A stretch of 7,592 nucleotides of DNA from Naegleria gruberi (lineage: Eukaryota). Made by a program: the position numbers and the translations under genes. The notes below the pieces were generated by a model that was given only the letters and a program-made list of their open reading frames with translations, was not told where the DNA came from and did no database searches. The stretch lies in NCBI GenBank assembly GCA_000004985.1, contig GG739127.1; one strand, written 5' to 3'. This document shows positions 2 through 7,592 of the stretch, piece after piece (within the stretch, counting starts at the first letter, position 1; every line of letters begins with the position of its first letter).

Positions 2-712
2 TCAACAGTTTGTGATTTAATGCTTTGCACAATTTTACAACACAGAATGCCAAAATATTATTTTGAAAATTATAGAGTTCCTGAAGATTTAGATCAGGCA
101 CAATATCTTGCTCTGGTTGATGTATTTTACTATGAAATGTTAAGCTCTGAAACTAGGTTGAGTGTAATTCCTGTATTCGTCACCCAGAATTATCTCAATA
201 CTCCATTTGAATTGTTAAAGTATGGTTTAGAAATGAGTTTTGACATTCTCTATAATCAACTATCCACACATAAAAAGATTGGTCTTGTTGAGAAACTGAT
301 AGCCACCTATCTCAATCAAGACTTCACTCCAGAACATGTAGAAACCATTCATTCCCTTTCCTCTCTCGAACGAAAAGATTTGAAAGCAAACAAATACACA
401 TCAGTCAGTATTGAAAAGGAGAGTCTGAAATTTACAGTTGTTTGTTTGGAAACTGTTACAACAATTCAAGAGAAAAAGGAACAATCGATCACACTGAATG
501 ATATCAGTGATAAGAGAGTGAAAATCGTGACAATCAAACTCATGGAATACACCCTTCAATTGCCAAACCTATTCAATGGAAATACTGTTGGAAGTATTAA
601 AATATCAACCAAAAATCTTTCCTCTGCCACCAACAATGGTCAACCAACACAGCCAACAGTTCAACCAAATCAACCAGCCAACCCACAAAAATCAAATTGT
701 TCATTGCTTTAA
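2..712 (+). CDS. Hypothetical protein; either complete from ATG 20 or the C-terminal part of a longer protein, since frame 2 is open back to nt 2 at the window edge. It has a Q/P/N/T-rich low-complexity C-terminal tail. Stop TAA at 710-712.
   Basis: A 231-codon stop-free frame in sequence of roughly 70% AT is very unlikely by chance. Codon usage is A/T-ending, like the other ORFs here. The tail ...NNGQPTQPTVQPNQPANPQKSN is low complexity. I recognise no conserved domain by eye. Confidence 0.6.
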   Translation, partial: STVCDLMLCTILQHRMPKYYFENYRVPEDLDQAQYLALVDVFYYEMLSSETRLSVIPVFVTQNYLNTPFELLKYGLEMSFDILYNQLSTHKKIGLVEKLIATYLNQDFTPEHVETIHSLSSLERKDLKANKYTSVSIEKESLKFTVVCLETVTTIQEKKEQSITLNDISDKRVKIVTIKLMEYTLQLPNLFNGNTVGSIKISTKNLSSATNNGQPTQPTVQPNQPANPQKSNCSLL

Positions 713-1352: not shown

Positions 1353-4300
1353 NNNNNNNNNNNNNNNNNNNNNNNNNNNNNNNNNNNNNNNNNNNNNNNN
1401 NNNNNNNNNNNNNNNNNNNNNNNNNNNNNNNNNNNNNNNNNNNNNNNNNNNNNNNNNNNNNNNNNNNNNNNNNNNNNNNNNNNNNNNNNNNNNNNNNNNN
1501 NNNNNNNNNNNNNNNNNNNNNNNNNNNNNNNNNNNNNNNNNNNNNNNNNNNNNNNNNNNNNNNNNNNNNNNNNNNNNNNNNNNNNNNNNNNNNNNNNNNN
1601 NNNNNNNNNNNNNNNNNNNNNNNNNNNNNNNNNNNNNNNNNNNNNNNNNNNNNNNNNNNNNNNNNNNNNNNNNNNNNNNNNNNNNNNNNNNNNNNNNNNN
1701 NNNNNNNNNNNNNNNNNNNNNNNNNNNNNNNNNNNNNNNNNNNNNNNNNNNNNNNNNNNNNNNNNNNNNNNNNNNNNNNNNNNNNNNNNNNNNNNNNNNN
1801 NNNNNNNNNNNNNNNNNNNNNNNNNNNNNNNNNNNNNNNNNNNNNNNNNNNNNNNNNNNNNNNNNNNNNNNNNNNNNNNNNNNNNNNNNNNNNNNNNNNN
1901 NNNNNNNNNNNNNNNNNNNNNNNNNNNNNNNNNNNNNNNNNNNNNNNNNNNNNNNNNNNNNNNNNNNNNNNNNNNNNNNNNNNNNNNNNNNNNNNNNNNN
2001 NNNNNNNNNNNNNNNNNNNNNNNNNNNNNNNNNNNNNNNNNNNNNNNNNNNNNNNNNNNNNNNNNNNNNNNNNNNNNNNNNNNNNNNNNNNNNNNNNNNN
2101 NNNNNNNNNNNNNNNNNNNNNNNNNNNNNNNNNNNNNNNNNNNNNNNNNNNNNNNNNNNNNNNNNNNNNNNNNNNNNNNNNNNNNNNNNNNNNNNNNNNN
2201 NNNNNNNNNNNNNNNNNNNNNNNNNNNNNNNNNNNNNNNNNNNNNNNNNNNNNNNNNNNNNNNNNNNNNNNNNNNNNNNNNNNNNNNNNNNNNNNNNNNN
2301 NNNNNNNNNNNNNNNNNNNNNNNNNNNNNNNNNNNNNNNNNNNNNNNNNNNNNNNNNNNNNNNNNNNNNNNNNNNNNNNNNNNNNNNNNNNNNNNNNNNN
2401 NNNNNNNNNNNNNNNNNNNNNNNNNNNNNNNNNNNNNNNNNNNNNNNNNNNNNNNNNNNNNNNNNNNNNNNNNNNNNNNNNNNNNNNNNNNNNNNNNNNN
2501 NNNNNNNNNNNNNNNNNNNNNNNNNNNNNNNNNNNNNNNNNNNNNNNNNNNNNNNNNNNNNNNNNNNNNNNNNNNNNNNNNNNNNNNNNNNNNNNNNNNN
2601 NNNNNNNNNNNNNNNNNNNNNNNNNNNNNNNNNNNNNNNNNNNNNNNNNNNNNNNNNNNNNNNNNNNNNNNNNNNNNNNNNNNNNNNNNNNNNNNNNNNN
2701 NNNNNNNNNNNNNNNNNNNNNNNNNNNNNNNNNNNNNNNNNNNNNNNNNNNNNNNNNNNNNNNNNNNNNNNNNNNNNNNNNNNNNNNNNNNNNNNNNNNN
2801 NNNNNNNNNNNNNNNNNNNNNNNNNNNNNNNNNNNNNNNNNNNNNNNNNNNNNNNNNNNNNNNNNNNNNNNNNNNNNNNNNNNNNNNNNNNNNNNNNNNN
2901 NNNNNNNNNNNNNNNNNNNNNNNNNNNNNNNNNNNNNNNNNNNNNNNNNNNNNNNNNNNNNNNNNNNNNNNNNNNNNNNNNNNNNNNNNNNNNNNNNNNN
3001 NNNNNNNNNNNNNNNNNNNNNNNNNNNNNNNNNNNNNNNNNNNNNNNNNNNNNNNNNNNNNNNNNNNNNNNNNNNNNNNNNNNNNNNNNNNNNNNNNNNN
3101 NNNNNNNNNNNNNNNNNNNNNNNNNNNNNNNNNNNNNNNNNNNNNNNNNNNNNNNNNNNNNNNNNNNNNNNNNNNNNNNNNNNNNNNNNNNNNNNNNNNN
3201 NNNNNNNNNNNNNNNNNNNNNNNNNNNNNNNNNNNNNNNNNNNNNNNNNNNNNNNNNNNNNNNNNNNNNNNNNNNNNNNNNNNNNNNNNNNNNNNNNNNN
3301 NNNNNNNNNNNNNNNNNNNNNNNNNNNNNNNNNNNNNNNNNNNNNNNNNNNNNNNNNNNNNNNNNNNNNNNNNNNNNNNNNNNNNNNNNNNNNNNNNNNN
3401 NNNNNNNNNNNNNNNNNNNNNNNNNNNNNNNNNNNNNNNNNNNNNNNNNNNNNNNNNNNNNNNNNNNNNNNNNNNNNNNNNNNNNNNNNNNNNNNNNNNN
3501 NNNNNNNNNNNNNNNNNNNNNNNNNNNNNNNNNNNNNNNNNNNNNNNNNNNNNNNNNNNNNNNNNNNNNNNNNNNNNNNNNNNNNNNNNNNNNNNNNNNN
3601 NNNNNNNNNNNNNNNNNNNNNNNNNNNNNNNNNNNNNNNNNNNNNNNNNNNNNNNNNNNNNNNNNNNNNNNNNNNNNNNNNNNNNNNNNNNNNNNNNNNN
3701 NNNNNNNNNNNNNNNNNNNNNNNNNNNNNNNNNNNNNNNNNNNNNNNNNNNNNNNNNNNNNNNNNNNNNNNNNNNNNNNNNNNNNNNNNNNNNNNNNNNN
3801 NNNNNNNNNNNNNNNNNNNNNNNNNNNNNNNNNNNNNNNNNNNNNNNNNNNNNNNNNNNNNNNNNNNNNNNNNNNNNNNNNNNNNNNNNNNNNNNNNNNN
3901 NNNNNNNNNNNNNNNNNNNNNNNNNNNNNNNNNNNNNNNNNNNNNNNNNNNNNNNNNNNNNNNNNNNNNNNNNNNNNNNNNNNNNNNNNNNNNNNNNNNN
4001 NNNNNNNNNNNNNNNNNNNNNNNNNNNNNNNNNNNNNNNNNNNNNNNNNNNNNNNNNNNNNNNNNNNNNNNNNNNNNNNNNNNNNNNNNNNNNNNNNNNN
4101 NNNNNNNNNNNNNNNNNNNNNNNNNNNNNNNNNNNNNNNNNNNNNNNNNNNNNNNNNNNNNNNNNNNNNNNNNNNNNNNNNNNNNNNNNNNNNNNNNNNN
4201 NNNNNNNNNNNNNNNNNNNNNNNNNNNNNNNNNNNNNNNNNNNNNNNNNNNNNNNNNNNNNNNNNNNNNNNNNNNNNNNNNNNNNNNNNNNNNNNNNNNN

Positions 4301-6113
4301 NNNNNNNNNNNNNNNNNNNNNNNNNNNNNNNNNNNNNNNNNNNNNNNNNNNNNNNNNNNNNNNNNNNNNNNNNNNNNNNNNNNNNNNNNNNNNNNNNNNN
4401 NNNNNNNNNNNNNNNNNNNNNNNNNNNNNNNNNNNNNNNNNNNNNNNNNNNNNNNNNNNNNNNNNNNNNNNNNNNNNNNNNNNNNNNNNNNNNNNNNNNN
4501 NNNNNNNNNNNNNNNNNNNNNNNNNNNNNNNNNNNNNNNNNNNNNNNNNNNNNNNNNNNNNNNNNNNNNNNNNNNNNNNNNNNNNNNNNNNNNNNNNNNN
4601 NNNNNNNNNNNNNNNNNNNNNNNNNNNNNNNNNNNNNNNNNNNNNNNNNNNNNNNNNNNNNNNNNNNNNNNNNNNNNNNNNNNNNNNNNNNNNNNNNNNN
4701 NNNNNNNNNNNNNNNNNNNNNNNNNNNNNNNNNNNNNNNNNNNNNNNNNNNNNNNNNNNNNNNNNNNNNNNNNNNNNNNNNNNNNNNNNNNNNNNNNNNN
4801 NNNNNNNNNNNNNNNNNNNNNNNNNNNNNNNNNNNNNNNNNNNNNNNNNNNNNNNNNNNNNNNNNNNNNNNNNNNNNNNNNNNNNNNNNNNNNNNNNNNN
4901 NNNNNNNNNNNNNNNNNNNNNNNNNNNNNNNNNNNNNNNNNNNNNNNNNNNNNNNNNNNNNNNNNNNNNNNNNNNNNNNNNNNNNNNNNNNNNNNNNNNN
5001 NNNNNNNNNNNNNNNNNNNNNNNNNNNNNNNNNNNNNNNNNNNNNNNNNNNNNNNNNNNNNNNNNNNNNNNNNNNNNNNNNNNNNNNNNNNNNNNNNNNN
5101 NNNNNNNNNNNNNNNNNNNNNNNNNNNNNNNNNNNNNNNNNNNNNNNNNNNNNNNNNNNNNNNNNNNNNNNNNNNNNNNNNNNNNNNNNNNNNNNNNNNN
5201 NNNNNNNNNNNNNNNNNNNNNNNNNNNNNNNNNNNNNNNNNNNNNNNNNNNNNNNNNNNNNNNNNNNNNNNNNNNNNNNNNNNNNNNNNNNNNNNNNNNN
5301 NNNNNNNNNNNNNNNNNNNNNNNNNNNNNNNNNNNNNNNNNNNNNNNNNNNNNNNNNNNNNNNNNNNNNNNNNNNNNNNNNNNNNNNNNNNNNNNNNNNN
5401 NNNNNNNNNNNNNNNNNNNNNNNNNNNNNNNNNNNNNNNNNNNNNNNNNNNNNNNNNNNNNNNNNNNNNNNNNNNNNNNNNNNNNNNNNNNNNNNNNNNN
5501 NNNNNNNNNNNNNNNNNNNNNNNNNNNNNNNNNNNNNNNNNNNNNNNNNNNNNNNNNNNNNNNNNNNNNNNNNNNNNNNNNNNNNNNNNNNNNNNNNNNN
5601 NNNNNNNNNNNNNNNNNNNNNNNNNNNNNNNNNNNNNNNNNNNNNNNNNNNNNNNNNNNNNNNNNNNNNNNNNNNNNNNNNNNNNNNNNNNNNNNNNNNN
5701 NNNNNNNNNNNNNNNNNNNNNNNNNNNNNNNNNNNNNNNNNNNNNNNNNNNNNNNNNNNNNNNNNNNNNNNNNNNNNNNNNNNNNNNNNNNNNNNNNNNN
5801 NNNNNNNNNNNNNNNNNNNNNNNNNNNNNNNNNNNNNNNNNNNNNNNNNNNNNNNNNNNNNNNNNNNNNNNNNNNNNNNNNNNNNNNNNNNNNNNNNNNN
5901 NNNNNNNNNNNNNNNNNNNNNNNNNNNNNNNNNNNNNNNNNNNNNNNNNNNNNNNNNNNNNNNNNNNNNNNNNNNNNNNNNNNNNNNNNNNNNNNNNNNN
6001 NNNNNNNNNNNNNNNNNNNNNNNNNNNNNNNNNNNNNNNNNNNNNNNNNNNNNNNNNNNNNNNNNNNNNNNNNNNNNNNNNNNNNNNNNNNNNNNNNNNN
6101 NNNNNNNNNNNNN
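1353..6113. other. Assembly gap: 4761 consecutive N. No sequence content.
   Basis: The N run is read directly. All long ORFs in the supplied track that cross this interval are poly-X artefacts of translating N. Confidence 0.99.
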
Positions 6114-6129
6114 ATCCAACATTATGTGA

Positions 6130-6537
6130 AATTTTCAAACAATTGCCAAAACTGAGCATTCGTTGGAAAATGTAATATTCTGGACTAAACTTGCACCAGT
6201 ATTCGAATCTATCAATAATGGCAACACACCTGCAACCACAGAATTGTGTAAACATTTTGAAGAGTGGAAAGCTACATTTATTGAAAATAATTCTCCAATG
6301 GAACTTAACATTTCACACAATACCAAGAAATCCTTCCATAAAATATTCGAATCTGTAAGAAACAATCAACAAAACGATAAGGAAATTAAGGAAGTTCTCT
6401 CAGATTTGTATTGTGCCATAATTATGAATATTGACGATACCTTCTCACGTTTTGTCCTATCTGACAGTTATGAAAGTATGAACAAAATAATTGAATTGAA
6501 AGAAAATCTTGGCTCTACTTTGAAACTGAAAGAATAA
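6130..6537 (+). CDS. C-terminal part of an RGS-domain protein (regulator of G-protein signalling). The visible part runs from just after an in-frame TGA (6127-6129) to TAA 6535-6537. The true 5' end is upstream in the gap.
   Basis: The translation NFQTIAKTEHSLENVIFWTKLAPVFES...FIENNSPMELNISHNTKK...DDTFSRFVLSDSYESM aligns with canonical RGS-box motifs such as human RGS4. FKAFLKSEYSEENIDFW matches FQTIAKTEHSLENVIFW. FISVQATKEVNLDSCTRE matches FIENNSPMELNISHNTKK. DSYRRFLKSRFY matches DTFSRFVLSDSY. The RGS box normally starts about 20 residues before this first motif, so the coding sequence must continue upstream of 6130. Confidence 0.8.
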   Translation, partial: NFQTIAKTEHSLENVIFWTKLAPVFESINNGNTPATTELCKHFEEWKATFIENNSPMELNISHNTKKSFHKIFESVRNNQQNDKEIKEVLSDLYCAIIMNIDDTFSRFVLSDSYESMNKIIELKENLGSTLKLKE

Positions 6538-6538
6538 A
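6533..6538 (+). promoter_or_regulatory. AATAAA hexamer overlapping the TAA stop of the RGS gene; candidate poly(A) signal.
   Basis: The sequence gAATAAAtg contains the stop TAA at 6535-6537. The same arrangement recurs at 7200-7205. Confidence 0.35.
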
Positions 6539-6651
6539 TGTTATTCATGAGCATGTACGATTCAGCAATCATGTTTTTCAATAATAGGTAAGAGACAATT
6601 TCAAAACAGCATGAAGTTAATATTTCGCAATTTAAGGTATTGCATGGCTAT

Positions 6652-6661
6652 TTTTAATATT
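6652..6661 (+). promoter_or_regulatory. TATA-like element (ttttaatatt) about -40 to -31 relative to the 5S rRNA start; candidate upstream Pol III promoter element.
   Basis: The AT-rich TATA-like box is at the position where many eukaryotic 5S genes (Drosophila, C. elegans, yeast, Neurospora) need an upstream element. It is assigned by position only. Confidence 0.3.
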
Positions 6662-6691
6662 CCTTATTATCATTGTAGTATGATTATGAAT

Positions 6692-6810
6692 GGCTACGGC
6701 CATATCACGATGAATGCACCTCATCCCGTCCGATTTGAGAAGTTAAGCATCGTCGAGCCACATCAGTACTGAGGTTGGAGACAACTTGGGAACCTGTGGT
6801 GCTGTAGTCT
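6692..6810 (+). rRNA. 5S ribosomal RNA gene, 119 nt, eukaryotic nuclear type.
   Basis: GGCTACGGCCATATCACGATGAATGCACCTCATCCCGTCCGATTTGAGAAGTTAAGCATCGTCGAGCC...GTACTGAGGTTGGAGACAACTTGGGAACCTGTGGTGCTGTAGTCT matches conserved eukaryotic 5S blocks: GGCCATA(T/C)CAC, GAATGCAC, ATCCCGTCCGAT, AGTTAAGC (box A), GTACT, GGGAGAC/GGAGAC, TGGGAA and GGTGCTGTAG. Hand alignment gives about 73% identity to C. elegans 5S and similar to human and yeast. Helix I closes: 5' GGCUACGGC pairs with 3' CUGUAGUCG reading backwards, nine pairs including two G-U. The 3' end runs straight into a T-run. Confidence 0.93.
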
Positions 6811-6821
6811 TTTTATCTTTT
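6810..6821 (+). terminator. RNA polymerase III terminator: T5 at 6810-6814, then atc, then T4 at 6818-6821.
   Basis: A run of four or more T on the coding strand directly at the 5S 3' end is the standard Pol III termination signal. Confidence 0.6.
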
Positions 6822-6916
6822 ACCATCTTGAGCTTTCCGAAAGCAGAAGAAACCAAAAACAAGGCAACCATGATTGCAAGTATTCAATACTTTTGGAAAT
6901 TAATCCCAAATCTCAA

Positions 6917-7204
6917 ATGGGAAGGTATGTATTAATAATGTTGTTTACAATAATATTGAATTCAATATATTACAAAAAATTGAATATTAAAGTAAGAGAA
7001 ATGCTTCAAGATAGGAATAGAGTAATTGTCAGATCACGTGCTAGTGGAAATCCAATTGGAAATTTCTTTGGAGTTCCATGCAATGGATCCAAAGCATTTG
7101 ATATCATGACCATTGATATTCATACAGTTGAGAATAATCAAATTGAAACTATTTATCATGAAGAAGAATGGACTCTTGCCATTAAACAATTATCTGGAAA
7201 ATAA
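6917..7204 (+). CDS. Hypothetical small protein, 95 aa from ATG 6917; an alternative ATG at 7001 would give 67 aa. Stop TAA at 7202-7204. The gene model is uncertain.
   Basis: The frame is open from TTG 6893; the first ATG is at 6917. I recognise no domain. The N-terminal 25 codons (6926-6992) are extremely AT-rich and hydrophobic/odd, and begin with GTATGT, so this stretch may not be coding. The C-terminal 67 aa (MLQDRNRVIVRSRASGNPIGNFFGVPCNGSKAFDIMTIDIHTVENNQIETIYHEEEWTLAIKQLSGK) has a normal composition. Confidence 0.35.
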   Translation: MGRYVLIMLFTIILNSIYYKKLNIKVREMLQDRNRVIVRSRASGNPIGNFFGVPCNGSKAFDIMTIDIHTVENNQIETIYHEEEWTLAIKQLSGK

Positions 7205-7205
7205 A
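7200..7205 (+). promoter_or_regulatory. AATAAA hexamer overlapping the TAA stop of ORF 6917..7204; candidate poly(A) signal.
   Basis: The sequence ggaaAATAAAtag contains the stop TAA at 7202-7204. Confidence 0.35.
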
Positions 7206-7229
7206 TAGTACCATGATTGACTTCATCAA

Positions 7230-7592
7230 TTAATGACATCTCTTTTTTTGACAATCAATAACCAACCATTGATAGTAGAATGCTTGTGGTGACAATGGCA
7301 TATCTTCCTCTAGTACAATAGCAAGCTTTGGCCTTTGAGACATTAGAGTTTCTAATAGTTCGAATTTAGGCTCAGTTTGTACATTTAGAAATTCAAGTTG
7401 TGGCCAGCAATTAATGTTTTCTAGTAAAAAATTGAAGAGACCGAAATGAGCGCCTTCAATAACTTTCAAGTTGGGAAATGATTCTGTGAGAATTGGATAC
7501 ATTTCATGACTGTAACAATAATCAACCAGTTCAGTTACATTCAAGTTACATACAATCTTGTCTTGTTTATCCAATACACTATCCAATATACT
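7230..7592 (-). CDS. C-terminal part of a leucine-rich-repeat-like protein (cysteine-containing LRR pattern, as in F-box/LRR or RNI-like proteins). The frame continues beyond the window end; the 'M' in the ORF track is a TTG. Stop TAA is the reverse complement of 7230-7232.
   Basis: The translation ...IVCNLNVTELVDYCYSHEMYPILTESFPNLKVIEGAHFGLFNFLLENINCWPQLEFLNVQTEPKFELLETL... shows spaced L/I/V/F with conserved N and C positions (LxxLxLxxCxx[IL]). The frame is stop-free for 120 codons to the window edge in AT-rich sequence. Confidence 0.55.
   Translation of the reverse strand, partial: SILDSVLDKQDKIVCNLNVTELVDYCYSHEMYPILTESFPNLKVIEGAHFGLFNFLLENINCWPQLEFLNVQTEPKFELLETLMSQRPKLAIVLEEDMPLSPQAFYYQWLVIDCQKKRCH

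What the first reader, a model, noticed from the sequence alone, without database searches (positions are those of the whole stretch)
6114..6165. In-frame TGA inside a conserved RGS domain, with no room for an intron
The RGS-box homology (FQTIAKTEHSLENVIFW is the alpha3 'FxxFLKSEFSEENLxFW' motif) starts at codon 6133. RGS boxes extend about 20 residues further N-terminal, so the reading frame must continue upstream. Immediately upstream the frame reads S-N-I-M-TGA-N-F-Q, with TGA at 6127-6129. No AG dinucleotide occurs between 6114 and 6154, so a 3' splice site cannot rescue the frame without removing the conserved motif. There are four explanations. (a) A base-call or assembly error; this is the most mundane reading, since sequence at gap edges is often low quality. 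(b) A recently disabled pseudogene. (c) TGA read as sense (Trp or Cys), as in some ciliate, Blastocrithidia-like and Amoebophrya nuclear codes. All four well-supported ORFs here end in TAA and none in TGA, which is compatible with (c) but is too few and expected anyway in an AT-rich genome. (d) Programmed readthrough.
Basis: partly seen in the sequence, partly recalled or inferred. Interest (0 to 1): 0.55.

Follow-up and report, generated by a model that had tools for sequence, protein, structure and literature searches.

The report
Off-frame TGA beside a one-base frameshift
The "in-frame stop codon" is an illusion: one base is missing 16 nt downstream, at the edge of an assembly gap in a Naegleria gruberi receptor-RGS gene, so the TGA is really the overlap of a Cys and a Glu codon and says nothing about an unusual genetic code.

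Summary
The window is a complete 7,592-bp Naegleria gruberi scaffold: two contigs of about 1.4 kb joined across 4,761 N. The TGA at 6127-6129 exists, and no AG lies between 6114 and 6154. But the TGA is not in the gene's reading frame.

A near-identical N. gruberi protein, NAEGRDRAFT_80662 (1,572 aa; NHL repeats, GPS motif, 7TM, C-terminal RGS), reads ...NPTLCEIFKQFAKTEHSLENVIFW.... The window encodes PTLCEIFKQ (9/9) in the frame starting at 6116, right from the gap edge. It encodes AKTEHSLENVIFW... (130/131) in the finding's frame from 6145. One nucleotide, the third base of a Phe codon, is missing between 6144 and 6145.

In the true frame, "TGA" spans TGT-GAA (Cys-Glu). Fifteen paralogs share the motif NPxLCxxFxQ[F/Y]. 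Repairing the base raises the Pfam RGS score from 26.6 to 38.3 bits; reading TGA as Trp gives 26.8.

Codon reassignment, readthrough, selenocysteine and programmed frameshifting all fail their tests. What remains is a base-call deletion in a low-coverage Sanger read tail (about 0.7) or a real, very recent 1-nt deletion in an allele or young paralog (about 0.25). No independent N. gruberi DNA was available to decide between them. Ordinary; low interest.

The parts
1353..6113 (.). Scaffold gap (4,761 N). By size it should hold roughly the first 1,430 codons of the receptor-RGS gene: signal peptide, NHL repeats, GPS motif and 7TM.
   Evidence: N-run coordinates. P0002 is 1,572 aa and its residue 1442 aligns to window 6145. 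1,441 codons upstream of 6145 puts a start near 1,820, inside the gap. No P0002 N-terminal match was found in the left contig.
6116..6144 (+). True reading frame at the contig edge: CCA ACA TTA TGT GAA ATT TTC AAA CAA TT- = P T L C E I F K Q (F). This is the N-terminal part of the RGS box.
   Evidence: 9/9 identical to P0002 residues 1433-1441. Chance about 6e-13. It fits the family motif NPxLCxxFxQ[F/Y] in 15 paralogs.
6127..6129 (+). The reported TGA. It is off-frame: the last base of TGT (Cys, 6125-6127) plus the first two bases of GAA (Glu, 6128-6130).
6143..6145 (+). Frameshift site. The third base of the Phe codon (TTy) is missing between 6144 and 6145: the window has CAA TT|GCC where the paralog requires CAA TTy GCC.
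   Evidence: The two tblastn HSPs to P0002 lie in different frames and overlap at 6133-6151. All 15 relatives have F/Y here with identical spacing. Inserting one base raises the Pfam RGS score from 26.6 to 38.3 bits and extends the match to profile position 11.
6145..6537 (+). Remainder of the RGS domain and C-terminus (AKTEHSLENVIFW...LKLKE), ending in the TAA stop at 6535-6537.
   Evidence: 130/131 identical to P0002 residues 1442-1572. PF00615 match.
6484..6486 (+). ATA (Ile) where P0002 has Lys. This is the only amino-acid difference from NAEGRDRAFT_80662 downstream of the shift, and it marks the window copy as a distinct allele or paralog.
   Evidence: alignment: MNKIIELKE against MNKKIELKE.

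Best explanation
Shown: the window is a small Naegleria gruberi scaffold. Its right-hand contig begins inside the C-terminal RGS domain of a gene nearly identical to NAEGRDRAFT_80662, a receptor with NHL repeats, a GPS motif, 7TM and a C-terminal RGS domain. The gene's frame at the contig edge is the one starting at 6116 (PTLCEIFKQ). One nucleotide, the third base of a Phe codon, is absent between 6144 and 6145. Extending that downstream frame backwards across the missing base enters a wrong frame, which hits an ordinary off-frame TGA (TGT|GAA) six codons later. The standard genetic code applies, and nothing is decoded at this TGA.

Inferred: the missing base is most likely a base-call deletion. 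It lies 31 nt from the inner edge of a 1.48-kb contig, in a mate-pair-only scaffold of a Sanger assembly. That edge is where the 3' tails of low-coverage reads fall and where single-base indels concentrate.

Confidence that the TGA is off-frame because of a 1-nt gap is about 0.97. Confidence that the gap is a sequencing or assembly error rather than a real mutation is about 0.7-0.75.
For: Organism and scaffold: the ORF at 20-712 is 100% identical to an N. gruberi predicted protein whose only contig is 7,592 bp long.

Closest relative: P0002 = XP_002674282.1 / NAEGRDRAFT_80662, on a 362,555-bp scaffold, 97% identical at E = 6e-77, with the match at its C-terminus.

Two-frame collinear match: P0002 residues 1433-1441 equal window 6116-6142 at 9/9, and residues 1442-1572 equal window 6145-6534 at 130/131. 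The chance of the 9-mer match is 6e-13.

Family conservation of NPxLCxxFxQ[F/Y][A/C]KxE in 15 paralogs.

Pfam RGS scores: 26.6 bits as sequenced, 26.8 bits with TGA read as Trp, 38.3 bits with one base restored, and 39.5 bits for P0002.

Off-frame stop density is 7.9% per codon.

For the error reading: the N. gruberi NEG-M genome is a Sanger assembly of a heterozygous diploid (PMC9928731). The lesion lies in the first 32 of the 424 coding nt visible, which has a 7.5% chance if it were placed uniformly. The rest of the ORF is intact.
Against: No reads or independent N. gruberi DNA could be obtained, so error against real deletion rests on inference.

The 29 nt between the contig edge and the lesion translate perfectly, so the read tail is not grossly bad.

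The copy carries at least one apparently real substitution (Lys to Ile at 6484-6486), so it is a separate allele or paralog that could carry a genuine frameshift.

Phe codon usage in the window is TTT 14 against TTC 13, so it cannot be shown that the lost base sat in a T homopolymer.
Confidence: 0.72

Rival explanations
1. The 1-nt deletion is real. This copy, an alternative haplotype or a very young paralog of NAEGRDRAFT_80662, carries a genuine frameshift. Translation in the 6116 frame would end at the TAA at 6173-6175 (PTLCEIFKQLPKLSIRWKM*). That would give a 7TM receptor without a functional RGS domain, either a nascent pseudogene or an RGS-less allele.
For: The copy differs from P0002 by a substitution in mid-contig, so it is a distinct sequence and not just the same locus re-read. 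The left-contig gene P0001 occurs only on this scaffold. The SnoaL-like and minus-strand ORFs have no identical N. gruberi protein elsewhere, which hints at a separate locus. N. gruberi has 229 RGS proteins (PMC3971589), a large family in which gene death is expected. The neighbouring SnoaL-like gene also looks truncated.
Against: There is a single lesion, and the otherwise intact ORF is 130/131 identical to P0002. The lesion sits 31 nt from a gap edge in a low-coverage Sanger contig, where errors concentrate. No read-level or transcript evidence exists.
Confidence: 0.24
2. TGA is a sense codon (Trp or Cys) in this organism's nuclear code, as in some ciliates, Blastocrithidia or Amoebophrya.
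For: Only that the four ORFs in the window end in TAA, which is expected in a genome of about 33% GC.
Against: No residue of any of the 15 homologs aligns to the TGA; the homology lies in another frame there. Substituting Trp adds 0.2 bits. There are 0 in-frame TGA in 587 codons of the window against 48 TGA in 1,174 off-frame codons. In N. fowleri, 4 of 10 annotated genes end in TGA and 2,596 single-exon codons have no in-frame TGA. No tRNA gene is present in the window.
Confidence: 0.004
3. Programmed stop-codon readthrough or selenocysteine insertion at 6127-6129.
For: Naegleria is reported to have selenoprotein machinery (a paper on selenophosphate synthetases lists N. gruberi; PMC4561486 was seen in the listing only and was not read).
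Against: The TGA is off-frame. No SECIS or other Rfam element was found in 6114-7592 even at E <= 10, apart from the 5S rRNA. The conserved Cys of the family is encoded by TGT at 6125-6127 in the true frame.
Confidence: 0.004
4. Programmed -1 ribosomal frameshifting at about 6140-6146 restores the RGS domain from the sequence as it stands.
For: A -1 slip after CAA (6140-6142) would read ATT-GCC and give ...KQIAKTE..., a conservative Phe to Ile change.
Against: There is no X_XXY_YYZ slippery heptamer at the site. The only XXXYYYZ string (AAATTTT, 6129-6135) is in the wrong register and lies upstream of residues still conserved in the 0 frame. Downstream RNA 6146-6235 folds no better than shuffles (-8.4 kcal/mol, z = +1.1). 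P0002 and all paralogs need no shift.
Confidence: 0.01
5. The TGA itself is a nonsense substitution or a miscalled base in a codon of the 6115 frame. This is the literal form of the reader's options (a) and (b).
For: Proximity to the gap edge.
Against: It would require SNIMxNFQTI to be the native sequence. That string matches the family at 1 of 10 positions, whereas the other frame matches at 9/9.
Confidence: 0.01

Closest known systems
NAEGRDRAFT_80662 (XP_002674282.1 / EFC41538.1 / D2VNP4_NAEGR), N. gruberi predicted protein, 1,572 aa
   Same: The C-terminal 140 residues are identical except for one Lys/Ile difference, once the missing base is allowed for. The gap size fits a gene of the same length.
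   Different: The window copy lacks one nucleotide at 6144|6145 and has ATA for Lys at 6484-6486. It lies on a separate 7.6-kb scaffold with different annotated neighbours. About 90% of it is hidden in the gap.
Naegleria seven-transmembrane RGS proteins (Nf 7TM RGS1-4 and 24 others; PMC9283941) and plant AtRGS1
   Same: P0002 has the described architecture: an extracellular N-terminus (NHL repeats), a GPS motif, a cluster of 6-7 hydrophobic segments, and a C-terminal RGS domain. For N. fowleri members of this class, GTPase-accelerating activity on self-activating G-alpha subunits has been shown.
   Different: No function has been tested for this N. gruberi member. NHL repeats are present rather than the EGF or lectin domains mentioned for Nf 7TM RGS2-4. 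In the window only the RGS part is visible.
UGA-to-sense nuclear code variants (ciliates, Blastocrithidia, Amoebophrya) and eukaryotic selenoproteins
   Same: Only the superficial appearance of a TGA upstream of conserved coding sequence.
   Different: The TGA is not in the translated frame. TGA is a normal terminator in the genus. There is no SECIS.
Frameshift artefacts at contig ends of low-coverage Sanger draft assemblies (general knowledge, not a tool result)
   Same: A single-base indel within about 30 nt of a contig or gap edge, in a scaffold held together only by mate pairs, with an otherwise intact ORF.
   Different: Not verified here, because no traces or quality values were available.

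Membership tests
RGS domain (Pfam PF00615) | Profile match above the gathering score | tested here: met
   26.6 bits as sequenced (cutoff 23.9, profile 15-116). 38.3 bits with profile 11-116 after restoring one base.
Naegleria 7TM-RGS receptors (PMC9283941) | Seven transmembrane segments N-terminal to the RGS domain, often with a GPS motif and an extracellular domain | not testable with these tools
   In the window this part lies in the 4,761-N gap. The 99%-identical relative P0002 has NHL (PF01436), GPS (PF01825), a signal peptide, six clear hydrophobic segments plus one weaker one, and RGS.
Stop-codon reassignment (UGA = Trp/Cys) | In-frame TGA aligned to a conserved residue in homologs | tested here: not met
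   Homologs align to the other frame across 6116-6142, so the TGA straddles Cys-Glu codons. Reading TGA as Trp gives no score gain.
Stop-codon reassignment (UGA = Trp/Cys) | TGA not used as a terminator; in-frame TGAs in ordinary genes | tested here: not met
   N. fowleri locus L001: 4 of 10 genes end in TGA, and there are 0 in-frame TGA in 2,596 single-exon codons. Window: 0 in-frame TGA in 587 codons. This is evidence at the level of the genus and the window, not a whole N. gruberi genome.
Stop-codon reassignment (UGA = Trp/Cys) | A cognate tRNA with UCA anticodon | not testable with these tools
   No tRNA gene in the 2.8 kb of readable sequence. The rest of the genome was not available.
Eukaryotic selenoprotein | SECIS element in the 3' UTR and Sec/Cys at the aligned position | tested here: not met
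   No SECIS hit at E <= 10 in 6114-7592. The conserved Cys is encoded by TGT in the true frame.
Programmed -1 ribosomal frameshift | Slippery heptamer in register plus a downstream stimulatory structure | tested here: not met
   No heptamer at 6140-6146, and the only XXXYYYZ string is out of register. The downstream fold has z = +1.1.
Pseudogene (recently disabled paralog or allele) | A disabling lesion confirmed in genomic DNA, usually with further lesions or relaxed constraint | tested here: inconclusive
   There is one frameshift only. The remaining 131 codons are intact and 130/131 identical to P0002. No independent DNA is on record.

The most novel reading that the evidence does not exclude
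The single-base deletion is genuine. One haplotype or a very young duplicate of the NAEGRDRAFT_80662 receptor gene has just lost its C-terminal RGS domain, with translation ending at 6173-6175. That would yield an adhesion-type 7TM protein uncoupled from its GTPase-accelerating module: a snapshot of gene death, or of domain loss, in the 229-member N. gruberi RGS family.
Probability: 0.24. Interest if true: 0.12.

Novelty: not a real feature. Interest (0 to 1): 0.05.

Why it matters
It matters mainly as a negative result. Naegleria gruberi shows no sign of UGA reassignment, readthrough or recoding at this site, so no follow-up on its genetic code is warranted.

It also shows how a T-run can fake continued motif homology. 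Phe is encoded in both frames here, which hid a 1-nt frameshift from a reader working by eye.

In practical terms, this scaffold carries an unannotated, nearly full-length copy of a 7TM-RGS receptor gene that lies mostly in a gap. The base at 6144|6145 should be checked before the copy is called a pseudogene.

Tried and rejected
(1) A word-index homology search with the RGS fragment found nothing. This was a false negative, since the exhaustive HMMER search then found the 97%-identical P0002.

(2) Fetching DNA for P0001, P0002 or ORF-derived products of the window found none on record. N. gruberi DNA is not in the searchable collections.

(3) A metagenome scan for the junction, with or without the extra base, gave 0 hits.

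(4) Synteny through the SnoaL-like neighbour failed. The N. fowleri ortholog locus has no RGS gene and no 5S gene, so no orthologous DNA for the junction was obtained.

(5) The intron rescue was rejected. There is no AG before 6155, and the homology is contiguous across the shift with no extra sequence.

(6) A frameshift inside the A3T4 run (6129-6136), my first guess, was rejected. Homology in the 6116 frame persists through CAA at 6140-6142.

(7) SECIS, tRNA-UCA, a slippery site and a downstream structure were all negative.

(8) Haplotig against paralog remains undecided. The neighbouring ORFs have no identical N. gruberi protein elsewhere, but they may simply be unannotated.

Full report
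**What the window is.** The 7,592 bases are a whole scaffold of Naegleria gruberi. The ORF at 20-712 is 100% identical to an N. gruberi "predicted protein" whose only contig is 7,592 bp long. Bases 1353-6113 are N (4,761 of them). Only two contigs are readable: 1-1352 and 6114-7592. N. gruberi NEG-M was sequenced by Sanger technology and is regarded as a heterozygous diploid (PMC9928731). The reported TGA lies 13 nt inside the right-hand contig.

**Checking the observation.** The sequence is as described. In the frame 6115+3k the translation is SNIM*NFQTIAKTEHSLENVIFW...LKLKE*, with TGA at 6127-6129 and TAA at 6535-6537. No AG occurs between 6114 and 6154; the first is at 6155-6156. The ORF after the TGA is an RGS domain: PF00615, 26.6 bits against a gathering score of 23.9, profile positions 15-116 of 117. 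All four ORFs in the window stop at TAA.

**What is really there.**
- A word-index search with the RGS fragment found nothing. An exhaustive HMMER search then found 36 relatives. The best, P0002, is 97% identical over 134 residues, and the match is at the very C-terminus of a 1,572-aa protein.
- P0002 is XP_002674282.1 / NAEGRDRAFT_80662 of N. gruberi, on a 362,555-bp scaffold.
- Around the junction it reads ...NEILKNPTLCEIFKQFAKTEHSLENVIFWTKLAP....
- The window encodes PTLCEIFKQ in the frame that starts at 6116, right from the gap edge. It encodes AKTEHSLENVIFW... in the finding's frame from 6145.
- tblastn returns exactly these two collinear HSPs in different frames: P0002 1433-1441 against 6116-6142 at 9/9, and P0002 1442-1572 against 6145-6534 at 130/131.
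- The chance of the 9-residue match at a fixed collinear position is about 6e-13. The two bases left over at the edge (AT, 6114-6115) fit the preceding Asn codon.
- The window has CAA TT|GCC where the relative needs CAA TTy GCC. One nucleotide, the third base of a Phe codon, is missing between 6144 and 6145.

In the true frame the bases 6125-6130 are TGT GAA (Cys-Glu), so the "TGA" is their overlap. The TTTT run at 6132-6135 yields Phe in both frames, and from AKTE onward the frame really is correct. The native motif IFKQFAKTEHSLENVIFW fits the RGS consensus better, with its second aromatic residue in place.

**Support from the family.** Fifteen paralogs, lined up on the junction, share ...NPxLCxxFxQ[F/Y][A/C]KxE[F]SLEN... 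with identical spacing. The 6116 frame fits this motif. SNIM*NFQTI does not. Pfam scoring agrees:
- 26.6 bits as sequenced.
- 26.8 bits if TGA is read as Trp.
- 38.3 bits, with the match extended to profile position 11, if one base is restored.
- 39.5 bits for P0002.

Running into a stop after slipping into a wrong frame is expected. In this window's coding sequence, 93 of 1,174 off-frame codons are stops (7.9%), and 48 of those are TGA.

**The exotic readings.**
- Reassignment of TGA: there are 0 in-frame TGA in 587 window codons. In an annotated N. fowleri locus fetched for another purpose, 4 of 10 genes end in TGA, and six single-exon genes (2,596 codons) have no internal TGA. No tRNA gene is present in the window.
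- Selenocysteine or readthrough: no SECIS or any other Rfam element apart from the 5S rRNA was found, even at E <= 10.
- Programmed -1 frameshifting: there is no slippery heptamer at 6140-6146. The only XXXYYYZ string (AAATTTT, 6129-6135) is out of register and lies upstream of residues still conserved in the zero frame. The 90 nt downstream fold no better than shuffled sequence (z = +1.1).
- Intron rescue: this is unnecessary and impossible, because homology is contiguous across the shift.

**What the gene is.** P0002 carries NHL repeats, a GPS (GPCR proteolysis site) motif, a signal peptide, a cluster of six clear hydrophobic segments plus one weaker one, and the C-terminal RGS domain. This is the seven-transmembrane RGS receptor class described in Naegleria. 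N. fowleri has 28 of them, many with GPS motifs, and the RGS domains of the tested members accelerate GTP hydrolysis on self-activating G-alpha subunits (PMC9283941). N. gruberi has 229 RGS proteins (PMC3971589). Counting 1,441 codons back from 6145 puts the start codon near 1,820, inside the gap. The scaffold therefore probably holds a full-length copy, about 90% of it unsequenced.

**Error or real mutation?** This is the one step I could not settle, because no N. gruberi DNA other than the window is reachable.

For a base-call deletion:
- The lesion is 31 nt from the inner edge of a 1.48-kb contig. The scaffold's geometry (two short contigs plus a gap, 7.6 kb in total) looks like a few mate pairs of roughly 8-kb clones, which is my inference. 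Inner contig edges are then the 3' tails of Sanger reads, where single-base indels are the typical error.
- The lesion falls in the first 32 of 424 visible coding nt, a 7.5% chance if placed uniformly.
- The remaining 131 codons are intact.

For a real deletion:
- The copy is a distinct sequence (Lys to Ile at 6484-6486, in mid-contig).
- Its neighbours are not found elsewhere in the annotated N. gruberi proteome.
- The 29 nt before the lesion translate perfectly.
- Phe codon usage (TTT 14, TTC 13) does not show that the lost base was in a homopolymer.

I put error at about 0.7-0.75 and a real, very recent frameshift at about 0.25. In the latter case the product would end at 6173-6175 and lack the RGS domain.

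**Verdict.** The reported in-frame TGA is not a real feature. It arises from reading one frame across a single missing base next to an assembly gap. The gene is an ordinary member of a known, very large Naegleria family, and the standard code applies. Interest is low.

Noticed in passing
window 6692-6810 (+): A complete 5S rRNA gene (RF00001, 105.4 bits, E = 5e-23, followed by a T-run). It lies 155 nt after the RGS gene's stop codon and directly upstream of the SnoaL-like coding sequence. It is a dispersed 5S copy wedged between two protein genes.
   Followed up: partly
window 6843-7204 (+): A SnoaL-like 'ester cyclase' gene (PF07366). It is split by a canonical 68-nt phase-1 intron (6925-6992, GTATGT...AAAG), and the spliced product reads ...LKWEVREMLQD..., the same length as its homologs. 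Only profile positions 41-135 of 136 are encoded. Positions 1-40 are found nowhere in 6114-7592, and the 5S gene occupies their expected place. The gene is therefore 5'-truncated or a remnant, or it has a novel N-terminus; the first in-frame ATG is at 6870.
   Followed up: partly
window 6843-7204; L001 10001-10459: The SnoaL-like protein is 66-71% identical to 136-aa proteins from many metagenome contigs, some labelled 'predicted ester cyclase', and 45-55% identical to bacterial ones, including one from an Elstera MAG. N. fowleri FDP41_005940 is a single-exon ortholog (69%) in a non-syntenic locus with no 5S gene. This suggests possible bacterial ancestry followed by intron gain in N. gruberi. 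That idea was not tested.
   Followed up: no
window 7230-7592 (-): A 121-codon ORF that runs off the scaffold end and stops at TAA (7230-7232). It has no Pfam match and no homolog in the word-index search.
   Followed up: no
window 2-712 (+): This ORF (P0001, annotated as a 221-aa predicted protein) is truncated by the scaffold start. It has a Gln/Pro/Asn-rich C-terminus, no Pfam domain, and no relative other than itself in 5.8 billion proteins. It is an orphan gene, and the only annotated N. gruberi protein recovered for this scaffold in the searches made here.
   Followed up: no
window 6130-6534 as query: Tool caveat: the word-index search returned no hit, although a 97%-identical protein (P0002) is in that collection. 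The match lies at residues 1439-1572 of a long protein. Negative results from that tool should not be read as absence.
   Followed up: yes
window 6484-6486: ATA (Ile) where NAEGRDRAFT_80662 has Lys; if that Lys codon is AAA, this is a T interrupting an A-run. It is the only amino-acid difference in 131 codons, and it would serve as a copy-specific marker for phasing the frameshift in read data.
   Followed up: no
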